Program-made: the position numbers and the translations under genes
Shown here: positions 39,936 to 59,378 of the stretch, piece by piece
Layout: each line of letters starts with the position of its first letter
Numbering within the stretch: the stretch's first letter is position 1
Source of the DNA: Minisyncoccota bacterium
Lineage (GTDB): Bacteria > Patescibacteriota > Minisyncoccia > Phycocordibacterales > UBA9973
Reading direction: 5' to 3'
Length of the DNA: 64,000 bases
Assembly: GCA_041657885.1 (NCBI GenBank)
Contig: JBBABB010000001.1
Location: 267,184 to 331,183, forward strand
Notes under the pieces: generated by a model
The model's database searches: none
Told to the model about the DNA's origin: nothing
Seen by the model: only the letters and a program-made list of their open reading frames with translations

Positions 39936-41099
39936 TTATTTAATAACTCTTGGCAAAAGAGCACTTATCCTTGTTGTTGCTTCATAATTTATCGTTCCTG
40001 ACTCCTTAGCAATTTGTTCAGCAGTAATTTCATTTTTACCCCGCCTGCTCCCTCGTGAGGGCGGGCAGGCCTGTTTTCCTAAAATTACGACTTCATCCTC
40101 TGGCAACACATCTTTAATATGAGAAATATCAACTACAATCATATTCATAGCAACTCTCCCCAAAATTTTTGCTCTCTTACCTTTTACTAAAACTTCCCCA
40201 GTATTTGAAAGCAGACGTGGAATACCATCAGCATAACCCTGTGGAATTACTGCTATCTTGGTCGTTTTCTTTGTTATATATGTAAGCCCATAACCGATTG
40301 GATGATTCGCGGGGAGAACTTTAATCTGAGCTACGTGTGTCACCCATTTCAAAACTGGTTTCAAAATTATTTTCTTTTTATTTAAATATTCTAAATGTTC
40401 ACTTGGCCACATTCCATAAAGCCCGATACCAAGTCGAACAATATTGTGTAAGCTATTTCCTTTTTCATAAACTAGAATTCCAGAAGTTGCTGAAATGTGG
40501 GTTTTAATATTTTCAAAACTATTTTTTCTAAAAATTTCTACACATTTATGATACATATCTATTTGTTTCTGTGCGTAGGTGAAATTCATGGTGTCTTCAA
40601 TATTTGCAAAATGAGAATAAATTCCATCGAGTTCTATATTCTTCAACTTTTTGAGTTCAACAATAAAATTATCAATCTGGCTTGGCATTATTCCTTCTCT
40701 ACCAAGACAAGAATCAATAGCAACATGTACTTTGACTTTCATTTTTAAACTCCCAGCAATAAAATTTATTTTCAATAAATGAATCAAATCAAAAGCAGAT
40801 ATTATCGCTTTTGATTTTATGGCTCTTTTTATACCATCTCCATTCAAATAACCAAATACCAAAACGGGTTTATTTGTAACCTTTCCAACTCTTTCAAATT
40901 CTTCAATACTATTTACTTGGAAATAATCTGTATAAGGAGCAATAATTTTCGTCACCTCAACATCCCCATGCCCGTAAGCATTTGCTTTTATAACAGAAGC
41001 AATCTTTGTACCGTTTTTCAGTAATCCTCGAAACTGCTTGATATTATGTATCAAGTTTTCTTTTGAAATCTCTATATATGAAAGTGGTAAATTTTGCAT
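39936..41099 (-). CDS. alr: Alanine racemase with an in-frame family A palindrome insertion. Its start is revised to the internal Met because the longer ORF overlaps tRNA-Leu.
   Basis: ASVIKANAYGHGDVEV contains the PLP-lysine motif and the fold is Alr-like. QACPPSRGSRRGKNEI is encoded by ccccgcctgctccctcgtgagggcgggcagg at 40039-40069. The track ORF 39936-41177 would overlap the tRNA at 41102-41183. Confidence 0.75.
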   Translation of the reverse strand: MQNLPLSYIEISKENLIHNIKQFRGLLKNGTKIASVIKANAYGHGDVEVTKIIAPYTDYFQVNSIEEFERVGKVTNKPVLVFGYLNGDGIKRAIKSKAIISAFDLIHLLKINFIAGSLKMKVKVHVAIDSCLGREGIMPSQIDNFIVELKKLKNIELDGIYSHFANIEDTMNFTYAQKQIDMYHKCVEIFRKNSFENIKTHISATSGILVYEKGNSLHNIVRLGIGLYGMWPSEHLEYLNKKKIILKPVLKWVTHVAQIKVLPANHPIGYGLTYITKKTTKIAVIPQGYADGIPRLLSNTGEVLVKGKRAKILGRVAMNMIVVDISHIKDVLPEDEVVILGKQACPPSRGSRRGKNEITAEQIAKESGTINYEATTRISALLPRVIK

Positions 41100-41101
41100 T
41101 G

Positions 41102-41183
41102 TGCCGGAGGAGAGAATCGAACTCTCACCCCTTACGAGACACGATTTTGAGTCGTGCGCGTCTACCAATTCCGCCACTCCGGC
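41102..41183 (-). tRNA. tRNA-Leu (anticodon CAA), type II with a long variable arm
   Basis: The minus-strand read GCCGGAGTGGCGGAATTGGTAGACGCGCACGACTCAAAATCGTGTCTCGTAAGGGGTGAGAGTTCGATTCTCTCCTCCGGCA has anticodon loop CTCAAAA and T-loop TTCGATT. Confidence 0.8.
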
Positions 41184-42425: not shown

Positions 42426-43940
42426 ATGAAAAAAGAACAAACCGAGCAACAAAAAATTGGGTATTTTATTAAGGAATTGAGAGAAAGCCGTGGTATGACT
42501 CAAGAAGCATTTGCGAAAGCACTGGAGACATCGCAAAGCTCTATTCCCCGCATGGAAAAGGGTGAGCAAAATTTCACAACTGAATTATTATTAAAAATAA
42601 GTAAAGTCCTAGACCATCAGGTTGTCTGCATAAATGATTCAATAGATTTTCAAGTACACGGCGGGAAAAAGTTAAGCGGAAGTATCAAAACAAATTTTTC
42701 TAAGAATGGTTCTGTTGGGCTTCTTTGTGCTTCACTACTCAACAAAGGGATAACAACCCTTCACGGCATCGCGCGCATCGAAGAAGTTAATCGTGTAATT
42801 GAAATCCTTGAAAGTATTGGAGTTCAAACAAAATGGGTTGGTCCAAATTCTCTTCAGCTTAATCCACCTAAACAACTAGCTTTAGAAAAAATAAATGTTG
42901 AATCTGCAGTTAAAACTCGTTCTATTGTAATGCTCATGGGTCCGCTCATACATTTATTCCCCACTTTTAAACTTCCTCACGCTCAAGGATGCAACCTTGG
43001 TAAACGCACTATCGCTGCTCACACTTATGCCCTTGAAGATTTAGGCGTAAAGATAAAGACAACTGCAACAAATTATGAAATAGAGTCCAAGAAATTAAAG
43101 CCTGGAAATATTGTCATGTATGAATCCGGAGATACTGCTTGCGAAAATGTCCTCACCGCTGCGTCAAAAATTGATGGAATCACAACTATTAGTTTCGCCA
43201 GTGCCAACTATATGGTTCAGGAAGTTTGTTTTTTCCTTGAAACACTTGGAGTAAAGATTGACGGCATTGGTACCTCTACTCTCGTTGTCCACGGAATAAA
43301 AGAAATTAATAAAAATATTGAATACTGGAATAGTGAAGACCCTATTGAATCAATGATGTTCATATCTGCAGCGGTTATCACTGACTCAGAACTCGTAATC
43401 ACCCGTTGCCCTATTGATTTCCTTTCGCTTGAATTAGAAAAAATGAAAAGAATGGGATTAAAATATAAAATATTGAAAAGATATCTCTCGTACAATGGAC
43501 GAACAAAATTAGCTGACATTAAAATACTACCTGGTAAATTAGTTGCTCTTGCTGACAAAATTTCTACAAATCCATACCCTGGAATAAATATTGATAATTT
43601 GCCATTTTTCGTACCTATTGCAATAAAAGCAAAAGGTCAGACCATGATTCACGACTGGGTCTACGAGAACCGCGCTATTTACTTCACAGAACTTAATCGT
43701 CTTGGAGCCAATGTCACTCTCGCTGATCCGCATCGGGTTTATATTCAAGGTGGTACACCATTAAAACCTGCTCAAGTCGTTTGTCCTCCTGCGCTTCGTC
43801 CATCTATGGTAATACTCGTCTCAATGCTTGCCGCTCCTGGTACTTCAATCTTGCGTAATGTCTATATGATTAATCGTGGTTATGAAGAAATAGCCGAACG
43901 TCTAAACTCTATTGGCGCTGATATTAAAATTTTGAAATAA
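42426..43940 (+). CDS. murA: UDP-N-acetylglucosamine 1-carboxyvinyltransferase (MurA/EPT family) fused to an N-terminal XRE-type helix-turn-helix domain
   Basis: Residues 10-65, IGYFIKELRESRGMTQEAFAKALETSQSSIPRMEKGEQNFTTELLLKISKVL, form a Cro/C1-type HTH. The remaining roughly 430 aa match MurA (KLSGSIKTNFSKNGSVGLLCASLL, active-site loop KLPHAQGCNLGKRTIAAH). Confidence 0.7.
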   Translation: MKKEQTEQQKIGYFIKELRESRGMTQEAFAKALETSQSSIPRMEKGEQNFTTELLLKISKVLDHQVVCINDSIDFQVHGGKKLSGSIKTNFSKNGSVGLLCASLLNKGITTLHGIARIEEVNRVIEILESIGVQTKWVGPNSLQLNPPKQLALEKINVESAVKTRSIVMLMGPLIHLFPTFKLPHAQGCNLGKRTIAAHTYALEDLGVKIKTTATNYEIESKKLKPGNIVMYESGDTACENVLTAASKIDGITTISFASANYMVQEVCFFLETLGVKIDGIGTSTLVVHGIKEINKNIEYWNSEDPIESMMFISAAVITDSELVITRCPIDFLSLELEKMKRMGLKYKILKRYLSYNGRTKLADIKILPGKLVALADKISTNPYPGINIDNLPFFVPIAIKAKGQTMIHDWVYENRAIYFTELNRLGANVTLADPHRVYIQGGTPLKPAQVVCPPALRPSMVILVSMLAAPGTSILRNVYMINRGYEEIAERLNSIGADIKILK

Positions 43941-44023
43941 AAAACCACAACACATTTTATTCATTTTCACAGGTCAGACCTGTGACTGTGAGAACTCAAG
44001 AAAAATGCTAAAATGTATATGTA

Positions 44024-44596
44024 ATGACGAAACGAGAACAATTGGATAAATTAAATATTTACTGGCAGGAGAACTGCAAGTGCGAACTGCGAAAAACAGC
44101 AACTCAAGCGGTTTTTGGTGATGGAAATGCGGAAAGTGATATCGTATTTATCGGAGAAGCTCCGGGGAAAAATGAAGATATTAAGGGAAGACCATTTGTT
44201 GGAGCTGCAGGAAAATTCTTAGAAGAAATGCTTGAAGGTATTGGAAAAAATCGTAGTGATATTTATATTACAAATATTGTAAAATATCGCCCGCCAAATA
44301 ATCGCGACCCAGAACCAGAAGAAAAAGAAGCTTGCAACGAATGGCTTATAAATGAACTCAAAATAATTTCTCCAAAATTAATTGTCTTTCTCGGAAGACA
44401 TTCAATGACACGGTTTTTCCCTACGGAAAAAATCTCTGAAATTCACGGGAAGCTTTTAATAAAAACTATCCCCGAACTTGGCAGACAAGCATTTCTTCCA
44501 CTTTATCATCCTGCCGCCGCTTTATATAACGGAGACATGAGGGAAAAATTAATCAAAGACTTCAAAAAAATTCCAAAAGCCCTAGAGAAAATTTGA
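44024..44596 (+). CDS. Uracil-DNA glycosylase, family 4 (Fe-S type)
   Basis: The 190 aa protein has GEAPG and a Cys cluster (CKCEL...C) at the N-terminus, followed by FVGAAGKFL and HP.A motifs typical of UDG family 4. Confidence 0.8.
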   Translation: MTKREQLDKLNIYWQENCKCELRKTATQAVFGDGNAESDIVFIGEAPGKNEDIKGRPFVGAAGKFLEEMLEGIGKNRSDIYITNIVKYRPPNNRDPEPEEKEACNEWLINELKIISPKLIVFLGRHSMTRFFPTEKISEIHGKLLIKTIPELGRQAFLPLYHPAAALYNGDMREKLIKDFKKIPKALEKI

Positions 44597-45985
44597 TTAT
44601 TCAATTATTGTCATATCTTCGACCCTGATTCCTTTTTCTATATAATCTTCCACACTATTTTTCTTTTTTATGAGTAAAAAGGAAGCTACTCCTATGCCAA
44701 TAACCACCAAAAGGCCGATAATTGGGTAAATTGATTTTGGGATATTAGAACCAGATTCTCCGGCACTTGCGCCAAGGTCATTTAAATTTATTACCTGTGA
44801 GTCTTGTGATAAATCATCATCTAGCGAACTACTGTCCGCTTGAATTGGATTGATATATGATACTACTTTGCTTACTGACGAAACTCTCGATGTTAACTTT
44901 TTTGTTTCTGTTGGATAAGTAGCAGTTATCTCTTTGTTCGGGTCTGTGATAACAACCGAGGCGATATCCCCACCCACAAAACCAGTTATCTTCGGCGATA
45001 ATTTTATTTTTTTATTTGGTAAAAGAGTTGTTTCCTCTGGAATTATAAAATAATGCGTTCCGGCCGTGACAATCCAATTTGAAAGAATTATTTCAGAACT
45101 TGATTTATTCTCAATTTCTATATATGGGTCTGATGCGCTTCCAACTGAGCTTATGAAAATTTCGGACGGAATAACTTTTATTGTAATCCTATTTGTAGCA
45201 TCAGCTATTTGACTAAAAGTGCTATCAAAATACGAAAGTGTTAAGGCGTATTCTCCAGGATACTCATATATGTATTCAAAGGAGCTAGAATCTCCAACCT
45301 TTCTCACCATCCCATCGCCGAAATTCCAAACAAAGTTACCAACAGTGTAGGTCTCTCCTCTGTTGGTAGTAGTCAGTGAACTAAGTAAAAAAGGAATTCC
45401 AGCTGTAATAATCTTTGGCGATATAATTTTGGTTGTTATTTTTAGAATTTCAGGATTGTTTTTAACAAGAGGAGTAGGGTCAATGTTTTCGTCTGTTGTA
45501 TCACTAGTATTTTCATCTAGTGAATTATTTGATGAATCAGAATTAGGTAAATTTTTTGTTGGATCTTGATTTGTTATCCATTTGCCAGATATTAAAACCC
45601 CAGACTTATCTTTTGCAGGAGCCTTAATAATTCCATCTGTACCATAGATTACCGAATCAATTGTATTAGATGAGTTATCTTTTAGAATAATTGTATCCCC
45701 ATCATTATTGAGCCAACTTTTAGAATTTTCAAAAACAATAAATCCATTTGCAGATATTGTTCCATTTAAAATTAGGTCATCTGTCACTTTGTCGTTACCA
45801 TCAACCAATTTCCATCCATTAAGAACGATTGGACTTCCTGTTGTATTTAATAATTCAATCCATTCAATTCCGTCGGTTGGGCTAGATACAAATTCATTAA
45901 TAATTACATTTGCATGCGCTAAATTTATCCAAGAGAAAAATACTACTAGCAAAATTATATAATGTTTAATTATTTTTGGTGTCAT
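44597..45985 (-). CDS. Secreted lamin-tail-domain (LTD) protein with C-terminal membrane anchor
   Basis: It has a signal peptide, an N-terminal LTD signature (ANVIINEFVSSPTDGIEWIELLN), a Ser/Asp-rich linker and a C-terminal TM helix followed by KKKN. Confidence 0.5.
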   Translation of the reverse strand: MTPKIIKHYIILLVVFFSWINLAHANVIINEFVSSPTDGIEWIELLNTTGSPIVLNGWKLVDGNDKVTDDLILNGTISANGFIVFENSKSWLNNDGDTIILKDNSSNTIDSVIYGTDGIIKAPAKDKSGVLISGKWITNQDPTKNLPNSDSSNNSLDENTSDTTDENIDPTPLVKNNPEILKITTKIISPKIITAGIPFLLSSLTTTNRGETYTVGNFVWNFGDGMVRKVGDSSSFEYIYEYPGEYALTLSYFDSTFSQIADATNRITIKVIPSEIFISSVGSASDPYIEIENKSSSEIILSNWIVTAGTHYFIIPEETTLLPNKKIKLSPKITGFVGGDIASVVITDPNKEITATYPTETKKLTSRVSSVSKVVSYINPIQADSSSLDDDLSQDSQVINLNDLGASAGESGSNIPKSIYPIIGLLVVIGIGVASFLLIKKKNSVEDYIEKGIRVEDMTIIE

Positions 45986-45995
45986 AACAATAAAT

Positions 45996-48173
45996 TTATT
46001 CTAATACTTTACGTAGCACATCTTCCGGCACTTCCCTTTTTGCCTTGCGTTTCTGCCAAGAATTTGTATTAGGTTTTATTTCGGGTTCTGGTTGCGAAAC
46101 AGGAATGTCTTTTTGAGATGGTCTGGCTCCTCGTCCTCCCTCATCCGAGGACCTCTCAAAAAGATTTTCCTGTGAAGCAACCTCTATCTTCTCTTCTTTT
46201 TTTACTTCTACTGATTGAATCACTTTTTCTTTCTCTTTAATCCTTGATAACACATCTTTAAGCGTTGCTTTCTTTTCTTCTGACGCCTCTTTTGTGGGTA
46301 AAGTATTTGCTACTCTTACATTAGAATTATTATTTTCTTTTAATGCAGAAAGAGACATAGGTTCTTGTTTAGAAATAGGCGCAACAGTTTCCTCTATTTT
46401 AAATCCTTTTTCTTCTGCCCCCTCCTTACCTCCTTTAGCAATTTTCTCCAACAATCCTCGCAAAAGTGGAGAAGGCCCAGAGTGTTTCTTTTTTTCTACA
46501 AAAGAAGTCCTTCTGTCATTGGTATTAACATTGTTTGTTGCTTGAGATGAACCCTGTGGTTTATATGAAGAATCTTTCGGCTTACTAAACCCAGAAAAAT
46601 TATTGTGAGGTGCCCCAGCTTTTTGTTCCATGGGTTTAAATTCTATCCCCAACATCGCTAACGGCTCAGTCGAAACTTTTTCTTCTTGATGAGCTGAACG
46701 AGATGCCACAAATCCGCTTTCTGGTTTAAGCTCACCACTTTTAATTTTGTACATACACTCTTTACAATAAACAGGCCTACCTTCTTTGGGCTCAAAAGGG
46801 ACCATCGTGGACTTACCACAATTTGAACAATCAGCTTTGTATTTCGCATCACCATCTCCGACTTGAAGCATTCCACTCCACTTTGAAATTTCATCTTCAA
46901 CTTCTGCTCGTGGACGAGTATATAGTTTACGTGATGACTCTATAATTTTATCTTTAACACCTTTTGATAAATCTATTTTTATTGGAGGAAGAGTTGTCGC
47001 CGAGAATGGACGACTAGTTACACCATCAATCATTAACTTAACATAAATATGAAAGTTGGGTAAATTTACCAAATCTAGTGCTGTAAATTCAGGCTCAAAT
47101 TCTTTTTCTAAAAATTCGGCATCATCTCCACCAACACGGAAAACAATCATAGTCCCAACGTTACCGAAAACAGCATCACGAACTTTTGTGCTATCTTTAC
47201 TCTCAAGTTGAGCTGTATATTGGTGAGCCACAGTAAGATTGAGTCGATATTTACGAGCTTCAGAGAGAATATTTGCAAATGCATCCGTCGCAAAGTTTTG
47301 GAATTCATCAACATACAAATAAAAATCTTTTCTATCTTCTTCGGGAATTCTGACACGCTCCATCGCGGCAAGCTGAATTTTTGTAATAATCATACCTCCT
47401 AAAAGTGCTGAATTGTCTTCACCGATACGCCCTTTTGAAACGTTGACGAGAAAAATTTTCCCCTCATTCATTATTTTGAAAATATCAATAGTTGATTTTG
47501 GCTGACCAACAACATTACGAATAATAGAAGTTGAAAGGAATTGACCGACCTTATTTTGAATCGGAGCTATTGCTTCATTACGAAATTGGTCACGCCATTG
47601 TTCATATTCATGAACCCAAAAAGCTTTAACAACAGGGTCTTTCAAATTACCAATTATCATTTGTCGATAATCTTTATCCACCAAGAGTCTTGGGATACCT
47701 AGAAGCGTTGTCCCTGGAGTATCAAGAAGCGCAAGAATTGCATTATTCAAAATGTATTCCATACGAGAACTCCAAGCATTAGCCCAAATCTTCGTAAAAA
47801 TACCCATCAGCCCTGATGCTACTAAGTGTTTATATTTTGGATCGTCAAGTTGTATAACATTAAAACCGATATGAAATTCTGTATCAGCTGGATTAAAATA
47901 TATTACATCTTTTACTCTGTGGTCTGGAATAAGATGGAGGATTTCTTCTACGGTCTCTCCGTGCGGGTCCACCACACAAACGCCTTCACCATTCTGAATA
48001 TTCTGGGCAATAAGATTGGAAAGAAGAACAGATTTACCAGTACCTGACTTTCCCAAGATATACATATGCTGGCGACGATCTTTACGTTTTATGCCAAAAA
48101 TAGCATTAGTACTACGGAAGTTTGTTCTACCAAAATAAGTAATGTCTCGATTGTGTGGAATTTCATTTTCCAT
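45996..48173 (-). CDS. FtsK/HerA/T4CP-superfamily P-loop ATPase (DUF87 or TraG/VirD4-like, soluble) with an internal CxxC zinc ribbon and a long low-complexity C-terminal tail (paralog B)
   Basis: Walker A ILGKSGTGKSVLLSNL is followed by VCVVDPHGE, Walker B FYLYVDEFQNF and VAHQY. The zinc ribbon CSNCGKSTMVPFEPKEGRPVYCKEC sits at about aa 440-470, followed by a roughly 250 aa K/E/S/P-rich tail. There is no N-terminal TM segment. Confidence 0.6.
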   Translation of the reverse strand: MENEIPHNRDITYFGRTNFRSTNAIFGIKRKDRRQHMYILGKSGTGKSVLLSNLIAQNIQNGEGVCVVDPHGETVEEILHLIPDHRVKDVIYFNPADTEFHIGFNVIQLDDPKYKHLVASGLMGIFTKIWANAWSSRMEYILNNAILALLDTPGTTLLGIPRLLVDKDYRQMIIGNLKDPVVKAFWVHEYEQWRDQFRNEAIAPIQNKVGQFLSTSIIRNVVGQPKSTIDIFKIMNEGKIFLVNVSKGRIGEDNSALLGGMIITKIQLAAMERVRIPEEDRKDFYLYVDEFQNFATDAFANILSEARKYRLNLTVAHQYTAQLESKDSTKVRDAVFGNVGTMIVFRVGGDDAEFLEKEFEPEFTALDLVNLPNFHIYVKLMIDGVTSRPFSATTLPPIKIDLSKGVKDKIIESSRKLYTRPRAEVEDEISKWSGMLQVGDGDAKYKADCSNCGKSTMVPFEPKEGRPVYCKECMYKIKSGELKPESGFVASRSAHQEEKVSTEPLAMLGIEFKPMEQKAGAPHNNFSGFSKPKDSSYKPQGSSQATNNVNTNDRRTSFVEKKKHSGPSPLLRGLLEKIAKGGKEGAEEKGFKIEETVAPISKQEPMSLSALKENNNSNVRVANTLPTKEASEEKKATLKDVLSRIKEKEKVIQSVEVKKEEKIEVASQENLFERSSDEGGRGARPSQKDIPVSQPEPEIKPNTNSWQKRKAKREVPEDVLRKVLE

Positions 48174-48255
48174 AGATTGGATTCATTATACAATGATTCT
48201 TCCAAATAAAAAAGGGGTTATAATATTCAAAACATAAATGCTATAATCTAAAAAT

Positions 48256-48849
48256 ATGATTCCAGAATATTTCGCCTATCTTTCAATTCCTTTCATTGCT
48301 ATCGGTTCTTTCTTTTATATAAGAGATACCATCAGGGGGAAAACAAAACCCAATAGAGTTTCTTGGATATTTTGGATGATTGCTCCTTTTGTTGGTGTAT
48401 ATATAGGTTATAAATCTGGAGTTAGTCTTCCCCTACTTGCATCTACATTTGCCGCAGGATTTTGTCCTTTTCTTGTTTTAATTGCATCTATCTTTAATAA
48501 AAATTCGTATTGGAAAACTACAAAGTTTGATATTTTGTGTGGAATATTATCTCTAATAGCAATTATAATATGGGTTACAACAAAAAATGGAGCTATCTCA
48601 ATCACCTTTGCTGTTCTAGCTGATTTGTTCGCAAGTATTCCAACAATTATTAAAAGTTGGAAACATAGCGAGACAGAAAACATTGGCCCATATTCTTTTG
48701 GCACGATAAATCAAATAATTACTATTTTGGCTATAAGTAAATTTTCTTTTTTAAACCTAATTTTCCCTATTTATTTTATTTTAGATAATATAATTATTAT
48801 TTTAGGAGTAAAAAGAAAAAGTATTTTCAAACTAATCACTAGAAACTAG
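48256..48849 (+). CDS. Hypothetical integral membrane protein (about 6 TM) located between the ATPase and Cys-rich genes
   Basis: The 197 aa ORF is hydrophobic. It is the only plus-strand gene inside the 45996-54700 module. Confidence 0.4.
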   Translation: MIPEYFAYLSIPFIAIGSFFYIRDTIRGKTKPNRVSWIFWMIAPFVGVYIGYKSGVSLPLLASTFAAGFCPFLVLIASIFNKNSYWKTTKFDILCGILSLIAIIIWVTTKNGAISITFAVLADLFASIPTIIKSWKHSETENIGPYSFGTINQIITILAISKFSFLNLIFPIYFILDNIIIILGVKRKSIFKLITRN

Positions 48850-48863
48850 CTACTGGAAACTAA

Positions 48864-50573
48864 TTAATAAACTTCCGCTTGATAGCATTTTTCACAATAG
48901 ATTATTTCTGGACGGTCGGGGGCATAAGGGGTTTTAATTTCTATACCACATTTATTACAATTTCTATCATATAATCCGGGCTTATTTGTCCTATTAAATC
49001 TACGAGCGTGTCGACATTTTGGGCAAGAATGTGGAATTGGTTGATTAAATTTTTCTAATAATTCAAATTCAACATCGCTTATATTAAATCCTTTGTCACA
49101 GGTGCTACACCTGATAACTTCCTTTTTTATTCCTTTTGTCGTCTCATTAAATGTCTGTGGTAAAGAATCCGCCGAGTAGGTAAAGTTGTAAGTTTGTTTT
49201 GGAATATCGCACCAATTATAACCCTGAGTTTCAGCTTGTTTTTTTGATAATGGATTATATTCATAAGCCATGGTTTCATTATATCCAAAGGGAGATAGTT
49301 CTGGCGGTAAAAATTCTCCATATGTATAAGTATGCCCTGTTTTGTTTTTCCAAGGATTCTTTTTCATATCAGCAATAATTTTTTCTTTTAGTTCAAAATA
49401 TTCTTCTTTTGTGTATTGTTTATTCAAAATACAATATTGTTTTCTTTTCAAATTTACACAACCAAAACAATCTTTTCCTTGAATACAATAAAAAGAATAT
49501 TCTACATTTTGTGCATTTGGCCAACACTCTGCGCAAAATTTATTATTGTAAGCTCCTTCTCCTACAATGTAACATTCATAAAGTAGAGACGATTCAGCCC
49601 CCCATCCAGTATAATCATAACAATCTTTTGCCCCCTTAAGAGATAAATATTGAACGAAGCGACAATCTTCAGCTCCCGAAACAAGAAAAGCATTTTTTGT
49701 ATTCTTCGATTCATAAACATATTCTCCTGTAACATTTATATTTAAACTATTACCATGATAGGATCGTTTAGGCGCACTACTCCAAAAATTTTCAGATTGA
49801 TTTTTTAATTTTTGTTGACTTCCATAAGTATCTAATTTTAATTCTTTTAACTTTTCAAAATATTCATTTTTTAAATATTTCTTATTAAAAATAAAGTAAC
49901 TTTTATTTCGTAGATTTACGCATCCAATACAATCATTACACCCATAACACGACTGGCAAAAATAACAATTTATACAACTATCTAATTCTTCGCTCCATTT
50001 GCAGTTATAACATTTATAAATTCCAACACATTCATAACACAATTCTGATTCTTTGGCACGATAACAGTCAAGAAGATCTTTATTGTGAGCAGTCATCATT
50101 GTATAAGCACAGTGTTCATCGTAGTCAGCATAGATTGTCATAAAACAATTTTTCTGATACGAGGCGTTGTTTGCATATTTTGTATTAACAAGTGATGGGT
50201 AAAGGGATTCAAGCGCAACAAAGATAGATTTCTTTCGAAGCTCAATTAATTGCTCAAAAAAAGGTCTATTTTCATCGTATTCCATCCCATATTCTGTCCC
50301 ATCCCAATTGTCTTTCCACCAACAAGGATTACAGTACATTTTTGTTTCCCCCTCTGGGGGATACAAACAAATAACAAGCTCCCCACATGAATCGCATTTT
50401 TTCTTATAAAATGACGACAAATTACCAAAAACCATTCTTCGCATCATCCTACACTCTGGACAAAAAGTTGGTGCTGGAACTTTTATTTTCTCGTAAAATG
50501 AAAAATCGTCAGGCTCGATAACGAAGTCGTGTTTGCAATTCTGACATATTCGGTTTTCGCTTTTATATTCCAT
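48864..50573 (-). CDS. Large cysteine-rich multi-zinc-ribbon protein (paralog 2)
   Basis: The 569 aa protein has the N-terminal ribbon CQNCKHDFVIEPDDFSFYEKIKVPAPTFCPECR and the C-terminal ribbons CPKCRHARR...CNKCGIEIKTPYAPDRPEIIYCEKCY. Its internal repeat blocks are shared with the ORFs at 10762-12429 and 51444-53090. Confidence 0.6.
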   Translation of the reverse strand: MEYKSENRICQNCKHDFVIEPDDFSFYEKIKVPAPTFCPECRMMRRMVFGNLSSFYKKKCDSCGELVICLYPPEGETKMYCNPCWWKDNWDGTEYGMEYDENRPFFEQLIELRKKSIFVALESLYPSLVNTKYANNASYQKNCFMTIYADYDEHCAYTMMTAHNKDLLDCYRAKESELCYECVGIYKCYNCKWSEELDSCINCYFCQSCYGCNDCIGCVNLRNKSYFIFNKKYLKNEYFEKLKELKLDTYGSQQKLKNQSENFWSSAPKRSYHGNSLNINVTGEYVYESKNTKNAFLVSGAEDCRFVQYLSLKGAKDCYDYTGWGAESSLLYECYIVGEGAYNNKFCAECWPNAQNVEYSFYCIQGKDCFGCVNLKRKQYCILNKQYTKEEYFELKEKIIADMKKNPWKNKTGHTYTYGEFLPPELSPFGYNETMAYEYNPLSKKQAETQGYNWCDIPKQTYNFTYSADSLPQTFNETTKGIKKEVIRCSTCDKGFNISDVEFELLEKFNQPIPHSCPKCRHARRFNRTNKPGLYDRNCNKCGIEIKTPYAPDRPEIIYCEKCYQAEVY

Positions 50574-50628
50574 GTTGAATTTTTCTTATCCATAACACTT
50601 TTTGACGACCGCATTAATCCGTTATTGT

Positions 50629-51054
50629 CTATTCTTTATCCTTTTTATTTAAAATTGAAGAATGGAAAATTTCGGGGTTGTGTGGTTTGCCACACACAAT
50701 TTCTATTTTTGGTAAATTACCATTTTTTATGGATTTATTTAAATTATTTAAAAGTGCATGTTGGTCATAGCCGAGATAAACAACATCCGGTTTAACTTCT
50801 TTTAAAATATTATATGTCCCTATTTTAAGGTCACCTAAAAGAACTAAATCTATATCTGGAACTTCTAAAAGTGTATTTATTCTTTCCACTTCATTATTTT
50901 CTGGTAATTGACCCTTCAACTCTTTTACAACACTATCACGCGCAATAATAGCCACAAGATGATTACCTTGCTTTTTTGCATCCTTTATAAAAGATGAGTG
51001 TCCATCATGTATCCCATCAAAAACACCAAAAATTACTACGGTTTTATTAATCAT
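50629..51054 (-). CDS. Cytidylyltransferase-like nucleotidyltransferase (TagD/RibL-like HxGH family)
   Basis: The 141 aa protein has VVIFGVFDGIHDGHSSFIKDAKKQG, an HxGH nucleotidyltransferase motif, and a Rossmann-like fold. Confidence 0.5.
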   Translation of the reverse strand: MINKTVVIFGVFDGIHDGHSSFIKDAKKQGNHLVAIIARDSVVKELKGQLPENNEVERINTLLEVPDIDLVLLGDLKIGTYNILKEVKPDVVYLGYDQHALLNNLNKSIKNGNLPKIEIVCGKPHNPEIFHSSILNKKDKE

Positions 51055-51057
51055 ATT

Positions 51058-51363
51058 TTATTCAATAACTTTCATCATCCATTCTTTGTATGGGTGGTTT
51101 ATTCGGCGGACATCTACCCCTGCAATAAGTGGAACACTATAAGTGTGGTGTTCTGAAATAATCTGATTCACTTCTTCTATTTTTAATTCAAATGTAGTGA
51201 CCAAAAGCATCGCTTGCGACACACATTGAAAAGAACCTTCCCAACTATAACAAGAAGATATTGACCAAAAATCAACACAAGCCGCTATCTTTTTATTTAC
51301 AATTAATGACCCAAGTTCTTGAGCTTCGTCCATATTTTTACATGTTGTATATATAAATACCAT
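51058..51363 (-). CDS. cutA: Divalent-cation tolerance protein CutA
   Basis: The 101 aa protein has IAACV, SISSCYSWEGS and HTYSVPLIA...NHPYKEWM motifs that match the CutA1 family pattern. Confidence 0.55.
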   Translation of the reverse strand: MVFIYTTCKNMDEAQELGSLIVNKKIAACVDFWSISSCYSWEGSFQCVSQAMLLVTTFELKIEEVNQIISEHHTYSVPLIAGVDVRRINHPYKEWMMKVIE

Positions 51364-51443
51364 AAAATATATAGATAAATTAGGTTACGACCCTTATTTT
51401 TTAATTATATCACTATTTAAAGAGAGGTCTATATAAAAACACT

Positions 51444-53090
51444 TTAGTTTATATTTTGCTTATAGCACTCTTCACAAGCAATTTTTTTATATCCCCACTC
51501 GGGAGGATAATAGGCATCGATATTTTTCTTGCAGTAATAACAATTATATGGATAAGCCGTCAAAACTGTCGTGTACTTCATATTATTTTTTATTCGCACA
51601 TCAAAATGATATCGTGGAAGTGGAATATTATTTTGTTTGTAAAAAATTAATTCATTTTCAGCTATATTAAACCGCCAACCTGTCTCTGGACAAATAAGTG
51701 CTTGAGTTATTATAGTATCAGGAACATCATCTATGGAATCAGGTAATTCACTTGTTGGTATTCCTTCTATATGACTTTCACTAACATCTTCCCAATAACC
51801 ACCAAGTTTTAAAATATCTTCTTTTTTGGTTTCTGGAAAATATAAGAAGCTAGTAGAAAAATTAAATGGCCCAGCACTCATAGAATATGGCAAAAACTTT
51901 CCATATTCGCCTCTTTCTTTCATATCTTCAATAATTCTTGTCCTGAGCTTGTCGAAGGATTCTTTCGTATATTGTTTATTCAAAATACAATATTTCTTTT
52001 TCTTCAAACCAACACAACCGAAACAATATTCACATTCAAGACATAAATCCAAATATTCGGAATATCTTGATTGGGTCCAAGCCGAATATTTTAAAGCAAA
52101 AATATTCATACAACCGGCACAATTACCAGATAATTCTCCATACCAGCAACCATTACAATCTATATTGGATGTCTCTTTCATCCCTCTGACGCAATTATAA
52201 CTATCTTCAGAGTCGCTGATAGTAAAACAATTATGACAATTTTTCGTGTTCATCAGATTATCTCCATCAGAATTATAAGTTTTCAAATTAAAGTTTTCCC
52301 TATGAATTGCTTCTTTTTGCGCAATTTCTTCGAAATGTTTTTTGTGTAATTGAATTGATTTATATGAGCCAAGAAAGAATAACCCTAATTTTTTATCATA
52401 TTCCTCCTTAGAATACTGAACATTCTCTATGCAGTATGATTTGCCTCGCAAATTCCAACACATAAAACAATCCTGGCAGTTGCGACAATCTTGTAAAAAA
52501 TATGAATCAATACAATCCTTGGAATTTCTGGAATAGAACAATTTAAAAGAATTGAAACAATTAACCGAATCAAAACACTTTTCCGAATCAAAACAAACTA
52601 CTACATCTATTGAATTTCTAACTCTTAGATTTCTGTATGAATAATATAAATCTTCACATACTTCCATTGAACGAGATAAGTAACAATTTTTAGAATTCCA
52701 AACATCATCACACCAATCACAATTCGTATTTTTACTTCCATTCTGATGCGGATGTGGAACTTTTTCTTGAAGTTTTTGTAATTGAGTAAAAAATGGTTTT
52801 GAAGAATCATAATCTTGTCCAAAACTCATCACATCCCAAGCATCACTATGCCATTCTGTTAAAGTATAAATCGGATATCTATTCTTTTCTGGAAAAGTTG
52901 TAATTAAACTGTCCCCTGATAAATCAGAAACCCCTTTACGAAATTTACCAAACAACCAAAAAGACAAGTGTAATTTTATTCGGCAAAAGAAACACAATGT
53001 CGGTAATTCAATATCAACCTTTTCATACATAGATAATTTATCTTTTGTTATAGAAAACTCTTTCTTACAGTGTTCGCAAACTTTTTTCAT
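51444..53090 (-). CDS. Large cysteine-rich multi-zinc-ribbon protein (paralog 3)
   Basis: The 548 aa protein has the N-terminal ribbon CEHCKKEFSITKDKLSMYEKVDIELPTLCFFCR and the C-terminal ribbon CYYCKKNIDAYYPPEWGYKKIACEECY. Its internal block CFGCVGLKKKKYCILNKQYTKESFDKL is conserved with the other two paralogs. Confidence 0.6.
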   Translation of the reverse strand: MKKVCEHCKKEFSITKDKLSMYEKVDIELPTLCFFCRIKLHLSFWLFGKFRKGVSDLSGDSLITTFPEKNRYPIYTLTEWHSDAWDVMSFGQDYDSSKPFFTQLQKLQEKVPHPHQNGSKNTNCDWCDDVWNSKNCYLSRSMEVCEDLYYSYRNLRVRNSIDVVVCFDSEKCFDSVNCFNSFKLFYSRNSKDCIDSYFLQDCRNCQDCFMCWNLRGKSYCIENVQYSKEEYDKKLGLFFLGSYKSIQLHKKHFEEIAQKEAIHRENFNLKTYNSDGDNLMNTKNCHNCFTISDSEDSYNCVRGMKETSNIDCNGCWYGELSGNCAGCMNIFALKYSAWTQSRYSEYLDLCLECEYCFGCVGLKKKKYCILNKQYTKESFDKLRTRIIEDMKERGEYGKFLPYSMSAGPFNFSTSFLYFPETKKEDILKLGGYWEDVSESHIEGIPTSELPDSIDDVPDTIITQALICPETGWRFNIAENELIFYKQNNIPLPRYHFDVRIKNNMKYTTVLTAYPYNCYYCKKNIDAYYPPEWGYKKIACEECYKQNIN

Positions 53091-53170
53091 AATATTTTTA
53101 ATTCATAGAATTTTTCTCCTCAAGGACTTGCCTTGGGCTCTCTAAAGGCAAGACCTTTTCCCGAAAAATT

Positions 53171-54700
53171 CTAAATCAACGGCTCGCCACCTTTTTCTCC
53201 TTTTTTTGGTTTCTCTCTAGGGTTTGATTCTTTATTTATACTTTCACTTTTATTTTCTTCATTACCTATTTCTTCTTCACCTTCTTCTTTTTTATCTGCC
53301 ATTATGGCAGCTTTTTCTTGAGCAGACCTTATGATAGTTGCTTCTTCTTCAGCAATTAATCTCTGCGCTTCACCTGCCAAAATAGAATATTTGCGTCGAG
53401 AGGCCTCTATAGCTTCTTGACGATAAGAAGGATGAGTGGCTGGCAATACACGCAATGTTTCAGCAGAAAATGGGTCATAACTTTCTCCATCAATTGTCAT
53501 CTTAATAAAAAATTCCCCAACTCCAAGATTAATCATATCTTTTACATCAAAAATAGGAGCAAAATCCGATTTAAGTTTTACGGCGTCATCTCCCCCAACA
53601 CGAAAGGCAATAATAGAACCTGTATTACCAAGTACTGCTTCTTCAACCTTAGGCATAAGTTGACCAACATATTGGTGGGCTACTATAAGATTTATGCCAT
53701 ATTTACGAGCTTCTGAAATAATATTTTCAAAAGTATCAGTAACAATATTATGGAACTCATCCACATATAGATAAAAATCATTACGATCTTGTGGTTCTAA
53801 TTTAGCACGAGCCATACCAGCTTGCTTAATTTTAGTAAGAAACATTGCTCCAAAGAAAGAAGAGTTCTCCTCACCTATTTTCCCTTTTGACAGATTAATC
53901 AAAAGAATCTTTCGCTCATTCATTAATTCTTCCAGATCAATTTTATTTTCTTTTTGTCCAAAAATATTACGGAGCATTGGGTCAGAAAGAAACTGGCCTA
54001 ATTTGTTAACCAGAGGAATAATAGCATCAGTATCAAATTTCTCAGACCAGTCAGCGAATTCTATTGCCCAGAATCTTTTTACCATATCATCCCCTATATA
54101 CTCCACAACCTTCTGACGATAGTTACGATCAGTAAGCATACTAATCATTCCCCGCATAGTAGCATGAGGATAATCAAGAAGAGCAAGCGTTGTAAAACGA
54201 AAAACGTGCTCAAGACGAGGAGTCCAGTTTGCTCCGAATTGTTTTCTTAAAACTTCTATCAATCCTTGAGTGAGTTGATGTTTAAAAGTTGGGTCGATGT
54301 TTGCTAGAGGATTAAATGATGAAGGATAATTTATGTCGCCTGGGTCGATTATACAAATATCTTCAATTCTCTCTTTAGGAATAAAATTTAAAATATCTTC
54401 AATAAGCTCTCCGTGTGGGTCTATAACACAAACACCTTGGCCGTAAGCTATATCTTGTCTAATCATTAATTCTAAAAGCTTAGACTTACCAGTACCTGAC
54501 TTTCCAATTATGTACATATGACGTCTACGGTCAATACGCTTGATACCAAAGACGAATTTCTTTTCTTCTAGAGATGCAACATAGTTCGTACGCCCAATAA
54601 AAACAACATCACTTGGGTCTGATTTCCCGAGAGTTGGAAGATCTGGAGGCGGCGGAGCATATTTAATTATCTGAATTTTGTTTGGCTTATTGAGTGACAT
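53171..54700 (-). CDS. FtsK/HerA/T4CP-superfamily P-loop ATPase (paralog A, shorter, lacking the zinc ribbon and tail)
   Basis: The 509 aa protein has Walker A IIGKSGTGKSKLLELM, then VCVIDPHGE, Walker B FYLYVDEFHNI and VAHQY. It is collinear with residues 1-430 of the ATPase at 45996-48173. Confidence 0.6.
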   Translation of the reverse strand: MSLNKPNKIQIIKYAPPPPDLPTLGKSDPSDVVFIGRTNYVASLEEKKFVFGIKRIDRRRHMYIIGKSGTGKSKLLELMIRQDIAYGQGVCVIDPHGELIEDILNFIPKERIEDICIIDPGDINYPSSFNPLANIDPTFKHQLTQGLIEVLRKQFGANWTPRLEHVFRFTTLALLDYPHATMRGMISMLTDRNYRQKVVEYIGDDMVKRFWAIEFADWSEKFDTDAIIPLVNKLGQFLSDPMLRNIFGQKENKIDLEELMNERKILLINLSKGKIGEENSSFFGAMFLTKIKQAGMARAKLEPQDRNDFYLYVDEFHNIVTDTFENIISEARKYGINLIVAHQYVGQLMPKVEEAVLGNTGSIIAFRVGGDDAVKLKSDFAPIFDVKDMINLGVGEFFIKMTIDGESYDPFSAETLRVLPATHPSYRQEAIEASRRKYSILAGEAQRLIAEEEATIIRSAQEKAAIMADKKEEGEEEIGNEENKSESINKESNPREKPKKGEKGGEPLI

Positions 54701-54751
54701 ATGTTTATATATTGTATCAAATTACAATAAAATAGTATAATATAGACGTAT

Positions 54752-59374: not shown

Positions 59375-59378
59375 AAAA

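What the first reader, a model, noticed from the sequence alone, without database searches (positions are those of the whole stretch)
46763..46853. ATPase-B carries the same type of CxxC zinc ribbon as the Cys-rich proteins, followed by a roughly 250-aa disordered tail
The segment CSNCGKSTMVPFEPKEGRPVYCKECMYK in ATPase-B has the same spacing and flanking residues as the terminal ribbons of the three Cys-rich paralogs (for example CNKCGIEIKTPYAPDRPEIIYCEKCY and VP/LP before the second CxxC). The shorter paralog ATPase-A lacks it. A ribbon shared between the two partners suggests a common binding target (nucleic acid, or the other partner), or domain shuffling within the module. The long K/E/S/P-rich tail resembles the disordered C-terminal tails of TraD-type coupling proteins that recruit relaxosomes.
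Basis: seen in the sequence. Interest (0 to 1): 0.5.

Follow-up and report, generated by a model that had tools for sequence, protein, structure and literature searches.

The report
Known zinc finger on orphan coupling-type ATPase
The cysteine motif is real but is a catalogued zinc-finger domain (CxxC-x17-CxxC, Pfam PF23477) at the end of a chromosomal, membrane-anchor-less VirD4/TraD-like ATPase of Patescibacteria; the more interesting result is that this ATPase, its finger-less twin and a variable set of cysteine-rich proteins with related fingers stay linked across many species.

Summary
ATPase-B (45996..48173, minus strand, 725 aa) carries CSNCGKSTMVPFEPKEGRPVYCKEC at aa 449-473. This is an exact CxxC-x17-CxxC and scores above the curated cut-offs of TIGR04272 (56.4 vs 36 bits) and PF23477 (53.6 vs 27). 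PGAP and JGI already name its orthologs 'CxxC-x17-CxxC domain-containing protein'.

Only one Cys-rich paralog (569 aa) shares the x17 spacing and resembles the finger beyond its cysteines. The other two have x18 and x19 spacers and weak or no similarity. ATPase-A lacks the finger, as do 53 of 53 orthologs.

The 249-aa tail is compositionally disordered but not featureless. Five short islands, including the extreme C-terminus EVPEDVLRKVLE, are conserved down to orthologs of 56-60% identity.

Recent domain shuffling is not supported: ATPase-B's finger is much closer to free-standing tandem fingers of small basic proteins than to the Cys-rich fingers. A TraD-like conjugative role is not supported either. 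There is no membrane anchor and no T4SS or relaxase nearby, the context is housekeeping genes, and there are no viral or plasmid copies.

Synteny does support a module: ATPase-A, 0-6 Cys-rich genes, ATPase-B and an LTD/PKD surface protein. Its function is unknown; a tethered adaptor role is my inference.

The parts
45996..48173 (-). ATPase-B: 725-aa soluble VirD4/TraD/TrwB-like P-loop ATPase with a C-terminal finger and tail
   Evidence: ORF. PF10412 51.1 bits, PF01935 41.5, PF02534 31.4, PF12696 31.8. TrwB structure 1e9r E=3.7e-8. No window of 19 residues has Kyte-Doolittle hydropathy above 1.6. More than 8000 homologs, and all of the top 120 have the same architecture.
46881..48092 (-). ATPase core (aa 28-431), shared with ATPase-A at 45% identity; Walker A GKSGTGKS at 48030..48053 and Walker B FYLYVDEF at 47301..47324
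   Evidence: Per-column identity is 0.83-1.00 among 120 orthologs.
46746..46844 (-). CxxC-x17-CxxC finger (aa 444-476); Cys449, Cys452, Cys470 and Cys473 at 46827-9, 46818-20, 46764-6 and 46755-7
   Evidence: TIGR04272 56.4 bits and PF23477 53.6 bits. The four Cys plus TMVPFEP..GRP.YC are invariant in 22 orthologs. The model gives strands 445-448 and 455-458 and helix 471-478, the best-scoring part (pLDDT 59-73) of an otherwise poor model.
45999..46745 (-). 249-aa low-complexity tail (aa 477-725)
   Evidence: K34 E33 S27 P17 of 249 residues. Mean hydropathy 0.385 is below the charge-hydropathy boundary of 0.423. TOP-IDP is 0.20-0.33, against about 0.05 in the core. Tail length in orthologs is 150-340 aa, median 262.
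46638..46745 (-). Tail island 1 (aa 477-512): IKSGELKPESGFVASRSAHQEEKVSTEPLAMLGIEF
   Evidence: Column identity is 0.84-0.96 for aa 466-510. An LGIEF-like motif is present in 71 of 77 species-level orthologs.
46440..46490 (-). Tail island 2 (aa 562-578): KKHSGPSPLLRGLLEKI, predicted helix 569-579
   Evidence: A PLLxGLL-like motif is present in 47 of 77 orthologs.
46338..46361 (-). Tail island 3 (aa 605-612): PMSLSALK
   Evidence: Present in 69 of 77 orthologs.
46248..46292 (-). Tail island 4 (aa 628-642): KEASEEKKATLKDVL
   Evidence: identity 0.78. Present in 44 of 77 orthologs.
45999..46061 (-). Tail island 5, the extreme C-terminus (aa 705-725): SWQKRKAKREVPEDVLRKVLE, predicted helix 717-724
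   Evidence: Identity 0.87-0.94. Present in 66 of 77 orthologs, including those at 56-60% identity. Helix.
53171..54700 (-). ATPase-A: 509-aa paralog without a finger, with a short acidic tail of about 75 aa
   Evidence: 45% identical to ATPase-B over aa 10-431. Pfam hits. 0 of 53 orthologs have CxxC..CxxC.
48864..50573 (-). Cys569: Cys-rich protein with an x17 finger at the C-terminus (48876..48971) and a second x17 finger near the N-terminus (50322..50396)
   Evidence: AlphaFold2 model with pLDDT 87 and pTM 0.86. 118 of 120 orthologs keep x17 at the C-terminus and 107 of 120 at the N-terminus.
51444..53090 (-). Cys548: Cys-rich paralog with a C-terminal finger of x18 spacing (51465..51542); its N-terminal second finger and its C-terminal first finger have lost their cysteines
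   Evidence: No TIGR04272 or PF23477 hit.
10762..12429 (-). Cys555: distant Cys-rich paralog lying among mur ligase genes, with a C-terminal finger of x19 spacing (10783..10863)
   Evidence: TIGR04272 18.7-20.9 bits, PF23477 18.9 bits, PF13451 23.3 bits.
44597..45985 (-). LTD/PKD surface protein gene 10 nt downstream of ATPase-B, with an N-terminal signal-anchor and a C-terminal transmembrane helix
   Evidence: PF00932 76 bits. Hydrophobic windows at both ends. It follows ATPase-B on the same strand in 58 of 58 loci that have both genes; the median gap is 11 nt and it is under 200 nt in 56 of 58.

Best explanation
ATPase-B is the longer of two chromosomal paralogs of a soluble VirD4/TraD/TrwB-family P-loop ATPase. 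It has no membrane anchor and is vertically inherited in Paceibacteria/Nomurabacteria (Patescibacteria).

Shown here:
- After the ATPase fold it carries one canonical copy of the catalogued CxxC-x17-CxxC zinc finger (PF23477/TIGR04272, predicted treble-clef topology).
- The finger is followed by a roughly 250-aa low-complexity tether that carries five conserved short motifs and ends in an amphipathic C-terminal helix.
- The Cys-rich neighbours carry divergent copies of the same finger family at their ends, paired with a PF13451 finger.
- These genes, the finger-less ATPase-A and a downstream LTD/PKD membrane protein stay linked across species.

Inferred:
- ATPase-A and ATPase-B work together as one motor, possibly as a mixed hexamer.
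- ATPase-B is the adaptor subunit. Its finger and its tail motifs act as flexible docking sites that bring partners or clients to the motor. The best candidates are the Cys-rich proteins, through a ligand or contact common to PF23477 fingers, and the membrane-anchored LTD/PKD protein.
- The logic resembles the way TraD's tail recruits its partner, but this is not conjugation.
For: Domain identity: (above the curated cut-offs); all of the top 120 orthologs carry PF23477, and many are named 'CxxC-x17-CxxC domain-containing protein'. Zinc binding by family members was shown by ICP-MS in M. mazei small proteins (PMC12704099).

Conservation: the finger is invariant and islands of the tail are conserved. 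Variable linkers between conserved islands are the usual signature of a disordered tether with docking motifs.

Same family in the partners. The hairpin-plus-helix pattern appears in both models, with Cys449/452 between strands and Cys470/473 at the start of the helix in ATPase-B, and Cys539/542 and Cys560/563 in the same positions in Cys569.

Linkage. ATPase-A is within 10 kb in 34 of 38 loci. Cys-rich genes lie between A and B in both gene orders. The LTD/PKD gene sits a median of 11 nt downstream in 56 of 58 loci.

Intact Walker A and B motifs in both paralogs.

Not a mobile element.

Literature: about two VirD4-like homologues per Patescibacteria genome (5713 in 2918 genomes), only 148 of them near virB4, with exaptation suggested (PMC12102498).
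Against: - No physical interaction was tested.
- 12 of 38 full-flank loci have no Cys-rich gene within 10 kb, yet keep the finger. The finger is therefore not tied to a locally encoded Cys-rich partner.
- ATPase-B's finger is closer to fingers of unrelated small basic proteins than to the Cys-rich fingers. This fits a generic ligand such as nucleic acid at least as well as a specific partner.
- Synteny among related genomes is partly inherited and not independent evidence.
- An A/B mixed hexamer is pure inference.
Confidence: 0.45

Rival explanations
1. The finger is a generic nucleic-acid-binding (RNA or single-stranded DNA) zinc finger that helps a DNA- or RNA-handling ATPase hold its substrate. 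Its presence in the Cys-rich proteins as well only reflects how promiscuous this domain is, not a shared partner.
For: The 39-aa finger finds 2026 cluster representatives. These are mostly 90-340-aa proteins with 2-5 tandem fingers, and 70 of 70 sampled are PF23477 with almost no other domain. Of the 137 that are not ATPase-B fragments, the median pI is 9.3, 85 have pI above 9, and 35 have at least 3 RGG-like triplets; this composition is typical of RNA-binding proteins. ATPase-B's finger matches their consensus C..CGk..eVPFkPt.gkPVyC..CF almost perfectly. From established knowledge, coupling-type ATPases of this family bind DNA.
Against: No nucleic-acid binding has been shown for any PF23477 member; the M. 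mazei paper shows only zinc binding. Within this window the finger type occurs only in ATPase-B and the Cys-rich family, and these are syntenic. The tail is nearly neutral (K+R 0.18, D+E 0.16), not basic.
Confidence: 0.3
2. One reading: ATPase-B is a conjugative type IV coupling protein whose disordered tail recruits a relaxosome, as the C-terminus of F-plasmid TraD binds TraM.
For: The ATPase fold is of the VirD4/TraD/TrwB type. The long tail ends in a conserved acidic and hydrophobic C-terminal peptide, formally like TraD (my own knowledge of F TraD-TraM).
Against: There is no N-terminal transmembrane domain. Scores are far below every TraD/VirD4 equivalog cut-off, for example TIGR03743 50.3 vs 366 and TIGR02759 32.9 vs 521. 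No VirB4, relaxase or TraM was found among the window ORFs scanned or read. The locus is flanked by murA, murB, alr and udg in dozens of species. There are no viral copies, and plasmid copies match only the core at 39% identity or less. Only 148 of 5713 Patescibacteria T4CP homologues lie near virB4.
Confidence: 0.04
3. The finger was recently exchanged between the Cys-rich genes and ATPase-B (domain shuffling within the module).
For: The genes are adjacent, and Cys569 shares the same x17 spacing and the G, [VT]P[FY].P and YC landmarks.
Against: The finger is fixed in 77 of 80 ATPase-B orthologs down to 56% identity, so any acquisition was ancient. Non-Cys similarity to the Cys-rich fingers (median 17) is far below that to free-standing fingers (median 55). 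The Cys-rich family often uses variant first knuckles, such as C-x4-C or His-containing inserts, that ATPase-B never has.
Confidence: 0.04
4. The zinc site is only a structural staple capping the ATPase fold, and the tail is an entropic spacer with no specific partners.
For: Small zinc sites often only stabilise a fold. Much of the tail varies freely in length and sequence: identity is 0.24-0.45 in the linkers and tail length ranges from 150 to 340 aa.
Against: Five tail islands are conserved to 56-60% ortholog identity, including the exact C-terminus. The finger's non-Cys surface residues are invariant. ATPase-A folds without any of this.
Confidence: 0.1

Closest known systems
CxxC-x17-CxxC domain (NCBIfam TIGR04272 cxxc_cxxc_Mbark; Pfam PF23477 zf_Tbcl_2, 'probable treble clef zinc finger')
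   Same: Exact spacing and consensus (C..CG....VPF.P...RPVYC..C), with scores above both curated cut-offs. M. mazei small proteins of this family bind zinc (PMC12704099).
   Different: Typical members are small proteins made of 2-5 tandem fingers with basic, often RGG-like linkers. Here a single copy is attached to a 440-aa ATPase and followed by a long motif-bearing tail. No function is known for the family, and no solved structure was found by sequence.
Type IV coupling proteins VirD4 / TrwB / TraD
   Same: P-loop fold with Walker A and B motifs and the all-alpha domain region (PF10412, PF02534, PF12696; TrwB 1e9r).
   Different: No N-terminal transmembrane domain, no T4SS or relaxase context, chromosomal and vertically inherited, present as an A/B paralog pair, and far below the equivalog cut-offs.
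C-terminal tail of F-plasmid TraD, which binds TraM (my own knowledge, not tested here)
   Same: A long, poorly conserved tail on a coupling-type ATPase that ends in a conserved acidic and hydrophobic peptide, so a tether-and-dock logic is plausible.
   Different: No sequence similarity, no TraM or relaxosome genes nearby, and this tail carries four further conserved islands plus a zinc finger.
Orphan VirD4-like T4CP homologues of Patescibacteria (PMC12102498)
   Same: The same kind of gene: about two per genome, almost never next to virB4, with function unknown and possible exaptation suggested.
   Different: In the passages I retrieved, that paper does not mention the finger ('zinc' occurs 0 times), the tail motifs, the A/B pairing or the linked Cys-rich and LTD/PKD genes. 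I did not read the whole paper.
PF13451 zf_Tbcl plus PF23477 finger pairs in the Cys-rich proteins
   Same: The last finger of Cys569 is a borderline PF23477 member (24.4 vs 27 bits). 22 of 120 orthologs pass the threshold.
   Different: The spacer is x17, x18 or x19, or the first knuckle is a variant. These fingers always occur as a pair with a PF13451-type finger at both ends of a beta-solenoid. ATPase-B has the second finger type only.

Membership tests
PF23477 / TIGR04272 (CxxC-x17-CxxC finger): ATPase-B | Four cysteines with exact C-x2-C-x17-C-x2-C spacing | tested here: met
   aa 449-473. 120 of 120 and 77 of 80 orthologs keep it.
PF23477 / TIGR04272 (CxxC-x17-CxxC finger): ATPase-B | Profile score above the curated cut-off | tested here: met
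   56.4 vs 36 bits and 53.6 vs 27 bits.
PF23477 / TIGR04272 (CxxC-x17-CxxC finger): ATPase-B | Binds one zinc ion through the four cysteines | not testable with these tools
   Shown by ICP-MS only for M. mazei family members (PMC12704099).
PF23477 / TIGR04272 (CxxC-x17-CxxC finger): ATPase-B | Treble-clef topology (knuckle in a beta-hairpin, second Cys pair at a helix N-terminus) | tested here: inconclusive
   Strands 445-448 and 455-458 and helix 471-478 fit, but local pLDDT is only 59-73 in a poor model. The same pattern appears at higher confidence (block means 83-88) in the Cys569 C-terminal finger.
PF23477 / TIGR04272: terminal fingers of the three Cys-rich paralogs | x17 spacing and profile score above the cut-off | tested here: inconclusive
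   Cys569: x17, 24.4 vs 27 and 31.5 vs 36 bits, below threshold, but 22 of 120 orthologs pass. Cys555: x19, 18.9-20.9 bits. Cys548: x18, no hit.
Type IV coupling protein (VirD4/TraD/TrwB) | FtsK/HerA-type nucleotide-binding domain with Walker A and B motifs, plus the all-alpha domain | tested here: met
   GKSGTGKS and FYLYVDEF. PF10412 51.1 bits covering aa 28-348. TrwB 1e9r E=3.7e-8.
Type IV coupling protein (VirD4/TraD/TrwB) | N-terminal transmembrane domain that docks on the secretion channel | tested here: not met
   Walker A begins at residue 41. The maximum 19-residue hydropathy is 1.23, with no window above 1.6.
Type IV coupling protein (VirD4/TraD/TrwB) | Encoded with a T4SS (VirB4) and/or a relaxase on a conjugative element | tested here: not met
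   None among the window ORFs scanned or read. Housekeeping synteny in 80 loci. None on viral contigs, and only core matches on plasmids.
Type IV coupling protein (VirD4/TraD/TrwB) | Score above the NCBIfam TraD/VirD4 equivalog or subfamily cut-offs | tested here: not met
   TIGR03743 50.3 vs 366, NF045973 40.6 vs 250, TIGR03754 36.4 vs 647.55, TIGR02759 32.9 vs 521.
F-TraD-type relaxosome-recruiting tail | C-terminal peptide that binds TraM or an accessory relaxosome protein encoded nearby | not tested
No relaxosome gene was seen in the window. The PF12696 hit lies in the ATPase core (aa 285-356), not the tail.

The most novel reading that the evidence does not exclude
The two ATPases form a dedicated motor, independent of or only loosely coupled to the T4SS. 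Its clients are the variable, fast-diverging Cys-rich beta-solenoid proteins encoded between the two ATPase genes. The terminal PF13451+PF23477 finger pair of these proteins would be the recognition tag. ATPase-B's own finger and motif-bearing tail would be the receptor or gate, and the LTD/PKD membrane protein encoded 10 nt downstream would be the envelope partner. That would amount to a previously undescribed export or assembly system specific to Patescibacteria, and it would give the phylum's 'orphan T4CPs' a function.
Probability: 0.12. Interest if true: 0.75.

Novelty: new variant of a known kind. Interest (0 to 1): 0.35.

Why it matters
By itself the finger is ordinary. It is a catalogued domain, and annotation pipelines already name this protein after it.

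What could matter is the context. Patescibacteria carry about two VirD4-like ATPases per genome, almost never next to a T4SS, and their role is an acknowledged open point (PMC12102498). This locus supplies concrete, testable partner candidates for that orphan ATPase:
- a finger-less twin (ATPase-A);
- a variable array of Cys-rich proteins that carry a related finger at both ends;
- a tightly linked surface protein (LTD/PKD);
- five conserved docking-type motifs in the tail.

It also gives the functionally uncharacterised PF23477 finger a defined enzymatic context in which to test what it binds.

Tried and rejected
- AlphaFold2 of full-length ATPase-B from 22 close orthologs gave a poor model (mean pLDDT 39.6, with the core also below 50). 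I did not use its low confidence as evidence of disorder. I used only the local secondary structure of the finger and of two tail helices, with that caveat.
- The afdb50 fold library was not available.
- The promoter and terminator scan of 44000..55500 was uninformative for promoters (43 found vs 47.6 expected). Terminator-like sites were above expectation (14 found vs 6.0 +/- 2.6 in shuffles), but I did not examine them and drew no operon boundaries from them.
- PADLOC gave only generic P-loop similarity for the ATPases (mad8 58.9 bits, HerA) and nothing for the Cys-rich or LTD proteins, so I rejected a known defence system.
- Literature searches for PF13451, zf-trcl, PF23477 and TIGR04272 found nothing. 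A search for Parcubacteria, cysteine-rich and beta-helix found nothing relevant.
- A PDB sequence search with a two-finger small protein found no solved relative (best E=0.13, from low-complexity linkers). The Cys569 search found nothing either.
- The best plasmid relative (Sulfitobacter, 39% identity, core only) sits among transposases and gave no functional clue.
- I considered a third whole-database homolog search with ATPase-A and did not run it, because 53 of 53 orthologs in the fetched loci already lack the finger.
Full report
**What is at the coordinates**

The finding lies inside ORF 45996..48173 on the minus strand, which encodes a 725-aa protein ('ATPase-B'). The quoted peptide CSNCGKSTMVPFEPKEGRPVYCKECMYK is aa 449-476, or window 46746..46829. 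The interval given, 46763..46853, translates to GDAKYKADCSNCGKSTMVPFEPKEGRPVYC. It is therefore shifted by 8 residues and misses the last CxxC. The spacing is exactly C-x2-C-x17-C-x2-C.

**Identity of the motif**

The motif is a catalogued domain. NCBIfam TIGR04272 ('CxxC-x17-CxxC domain', cxxc_cxxc_Mbark) scores 56.4 bits against a cut-off of 36 (E=1.7e-15). Pfam PF23477 (zf_Tbcl_2, 'probable treble clef zinc finger') scores 53.6 bits against 27.

All of the best 120 (70-100% identical) carry PF10412 + PF01935 + PF23477 + PF12696. NCBI and JGI name many of them 'CxxC-x17-CxxC domain-containing protein' or 'type IV secretion system DNA-binding domain-containing protein', from Candidatus Nomurabacteria, Paceibacterota and Patescibacteria. 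The finger on this ATPase is thus already annotated in public databases.

The only paper I found that discusses the domain shows by ICP-MS that two Methanosarcina mazei small proteins with it bind zinc. No function is known (PMC12704099). Searches for the accession numbers found nothing, and no solved structure was found by sequence.

**How widespread the finger is, and what it usually looks like**

A phmmer search with the 39-aa finger against 1.84 billion cluster representatives gave 2026 proteins at E<=1e-3.
- The best hits are mostly proteins of 90-340 aa with 2-5 tandem fingers.
- 70 of 70 sampled are PF23477, with almost no other domain.
- Of the 137 that are not ATPase-B fragments, the median pI is 9.3, 85 have pI above 9, and 35 carry at least three RGG-like triplets.
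- Their finger consensus, C..CGk..eVPFkPt.gkPVyC..CF, is almost the ATPase-B sequence.

**Comparison with the Cys-rich paralogs**

The three paralogs are Cys569 (48864..50573), Cys548 (51444..53090) and Cys555 (10762..12429). Their last fingers have spacers of 17, 18 and 19 residues, so 'same spacing' holds for one of the three.

Scores of the isolated C-terminal fingers against TIGR04272 are 31.5 bits (E=1e-7) for Cys569 and 20.9 bits for Cys555, with no hit for Cys548. All are below the cut-off. However, 22 of the 120 listed Cys569 orthologs have a precomputed PF23477 hit, and some are named after it.

I tested for similarity beyond the cysteines in two ways.
- A profile built from 118 C-terminal fingers of Cys569 orthologs scores the ATPase-B finger at 17.0 bits, against 1.6 +/- 3.2 for 500 cysteine-preserving shuffles (none reach it). 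The reverse profile is weaker: 6 of 500 shuffles reach the observed score for Cys569, 7 of 500 for Cys555 and 124 of 500 for Cys548.
- A chance x17 motif from the Cys-rich central region scores like its own shuffles.

The shared landmarks are a G after the first CxxC, [VT]P[FY].P in the middle, and YC before the second CxxC.

The fingers therefore belong to one family, but ATPase-B's copy is not derived from its neighbours. Its median non-Cys BLOSUM62 score is 55 to the small-protein fingers, 17 to the Cys-rich C-terminal fingers, 15 to their N-terminal fingers, and -34 to chance x17 motifs. Many Cys-rich family members also use variant first knuckles (C-x4-C, or His-containing inserts) that ATPase-B never shows.

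- Cys569 has a second x17 finger near its N-terminus (50322..50396).
- Both ends of the family carry a pair of fingers: a PF13451-like finger followed by a PF23477-like one. In Cys548 and Cys555 several of these fingers have lost their cysteines.

**Fold**

The ATPase-B model is poor overall (mean pLDDT 39.6). The finger is its best part (pLDDT 59-73), with strands 445-448 and 455-458 and a helix at 471-478.

The Cys569 model is good (pLDDT 87, pTM 0.86). Its C-terminal finger shows the same pattern, with the first Cys pair in a hairpin turn and the second at the start of a helix. This is treble-clef topology, as Pfam labels it, rather than a classical two-hairpin zinc ribbon.

**ATPase-A**

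ATPase-A (53171..54700, 509 aa) is 45% identical to ATPase-B over aa 10-431 and diverges after that point. It has no CxxC...CxxC, and neither do 53 of 53 orthologs in the related loci. 77 of 80 ATPase-B orthologs have the x17 finger.

**The tail**

Residues 477-725 (249 aa) are rich in K, E, S and P (34, 33, 27 and 17 residues). They fall on the disordered side of the charge-hydropathy plot (0.385 vs boundary 0.423). TOP-IDP values are 0.20-0.33, against about 0.05 in the core. This is a composition-based estimate; no dedicated disorder predictor was available.

The tail is not uniform. Among 120 orthologs, linkers have 0.24-0.45 column identity and variable length (tails of 150-340 aa). Five islands are conserved:
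- Island 1, aa 477-512: IKSGELKP..GFVASRS..QEEKVST.PLA.LGIEF
- Island 2, aa 562-578: KKHSGPSPLLRGLLEKI
- Island 3, aa 605-612: PMSLSxLK
- Island 4, aa 628-642: KEASEEKKASLKDLL
- Island 5, aa 705-725: the exact C-terminus, SWQKRKAKKEVPEDVLRKVLE

In species-level orthologs down to 56-60% identity, islands 1, 3 and 5 are present in 71, 69 and 66 of 77, and islands 2 and 4 in 47 and 44 of 77. The two predicted tail helices (569-579 and 717-724) coincide with islands 2 and 5. These motifs occur only in ATPase-B and its fragments, not in other finger proteins.

**What kind of ATPase this is**

The core matches the coupling-protein fold: PF10412, PF02534 and PF12696, TrwB structure 1e9r at E=3.7e-8, and intact Walker A (GKSGTGKS) and Walker B (FYLYVDEF) motifs. 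It fails the other defining features of a conjugative coupling protein.
- It has no transmembrane segment; Walker A starts at residue 41 and the maximum hydropathy is 1.23.
- Its scores are far below every TraD/VirD4 equivalog cut-off.
- It has no T4SS or relaxase neighbours. The window ORFs that I scanned with Pfam are housekeeping genes: aminoacyl-tRNA synthetases, mur ligases, a PBP, MurJ, LepA, TsaD, MiaA and YchF. Others I read only from their translations, and several gave no Pfam hit.
- No relative is found on viral contigs.
- Plasmid-borne relatives match only aa ~9-444 at 39% identity or less, never the finger or tail.
- The 'TraM recognition site' Pfam hit lies in the ATPase fold (aa 285-356), not in the tail.

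A 2025 survey reports 5713 VirD4-like homologues in 2918 Patescibacteria genomes, only 148 of them near virB4, and raises possible exaptation (PMC12102498). The A/B pair here fits that picture.

**Synteny**

I fetched 80 loci from species-representative genomes and mapped the window's proteins onto them.
- Of 38 loci with at least 8 kb on both sides, 34 have ATPase-A within 10 kb and 26 have at least one Cys-rich gene. The count ranges from 0 to 6.
- Of the 71 Cys-rich genes in loci that have both ATPases, 52 lie between them.
- 93 of 95 Cys-rich genes are on ATPase-B's strand.
- Both gene orders keep Cys-rich genes in between: A>B in 22 of 44 loci and B>A in 8 of 9.
- The LTD/PKD membrane protein gene follows ATPase-B on the same strand in 58 of 58 loci that have both. 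The median gap is 11 nt, and it is under 200 nt in 56 of 58.

The 'module' is therefore real at the level of gene neighbourhood. However, 12 of the 38 full-flank loci keep the finger with no Cys-rich gene nearby.

**Mechanism**

Shown: a canonical PF23477 finger and a motif-bearing tether are fixed on one of two paralogous soluble coupling-type ATPases. That ATPase is linked to proteins carrying divergent fingers of the same family and to a membrane-anchored surface protein.

Inferred, confidence about 0.45: ATPase-B is the adaptor subunit of an A/B motor. Its finger and tail motifs dock partners or clients, with the Cys-rich proteins and the LTD/PKD protein as candidates. This follows the tether-and-dock logic known from TraD (my own knowledge), but outside conjugation.

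Main rival, about 0.3: the finger is a generic RNA- or DNA-binding module, as the basic and often RGG-like context of its free-standing relatives suggests, and the sharing with the Cys-rich proteins is incidental.

Conjugative coupling, recent domain shuffling, and a purely structural role are each unlikely, at 0.1 or less.

**Verdict**

However, the finger is a known, annotated domain, and the TraD and domain-shuffling interpretations are not supported. The residual interest lies in the conserved, undescribed module around an orphan Patescibacteria coupling-type ATPase. Interest is 0.35; novelty is a new variant of a known kind.

Noticed in passing
[not shown]
   Followed up: partly
window 44597..54700; loci L001-L080: The gene neighbourhood ATPase-A, 0-6 Cys-rich genes (often with CutA and a cytidylyltransferase), ATPase-B and LTD/PKD is conserved across Paceibacteria species. 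The Cys-rich copy number is highly variable and both A>B and B>A orders occur.
   Followed up: yes
window 44597..45985 (-): The LTD (lamin-tail) + PKD protein, with an N-terminal signal-anchor and a C-terminal transmembrane helix, starts 10 nt after the ATPase-B stop codon. The same tight pairing (median gap 11 nt) is seen in 56 of 58 related loci. It is a candidate membrane partner for the anchor-less ATPase.
   Followed up: partly
window 27039..29849 (-): The leucyl-tRNA synthetase carries an inserted DUF559 / REase_MTES_1575 (Vsr-like endonuclease fold) domain at aa 269-366, between the catalytic N-terminal part and the editing domain (PF04480, 115 bits).
   Followed up: no
window 42426..43940 (+): The ORF I labelled MurA from its sequence begins with an XRE-type helix-turn-helix-like segment (…GYFIKELRESRGMTQEAFAKALETSQSSIPRMEKGEQ…) fused to the enzyme. 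The fusion gene is conserved next to the module in most related loci. I did not run it against Pfam.
   Followed up: no
window 41101..41183 (-): tRNA-Leu(CAA) overlaps the 5' extension of the listed alanine racemase ORF (39936..41177, GTG start). The true start of that gene must be further downstream.
   Followed up: partly
window 58775..60305 (-): An adjacent pair looks like a restriction-modification or HNH + methyltransferase unit. The 308-aa ORF has an SPPY methyltransferase motif (DLIITSPPYN), and the 199-aa ORF has an HNH-like motif (HVDHIKPKDLGG…CSQHN). This was read from the translations only.
   Followed up: no
window 53171..54700 (-), aa ~431-509: ATPase-A also ends in a short compositionally disordered tail rich in E and K (EEGEEEIGNEENKSESINKESNPREKPKKGEKGGEPLI; hydropathy 0.369 vs boundary 0.431). 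It has no finger. I did not examine its conservation.
   Followed up: no
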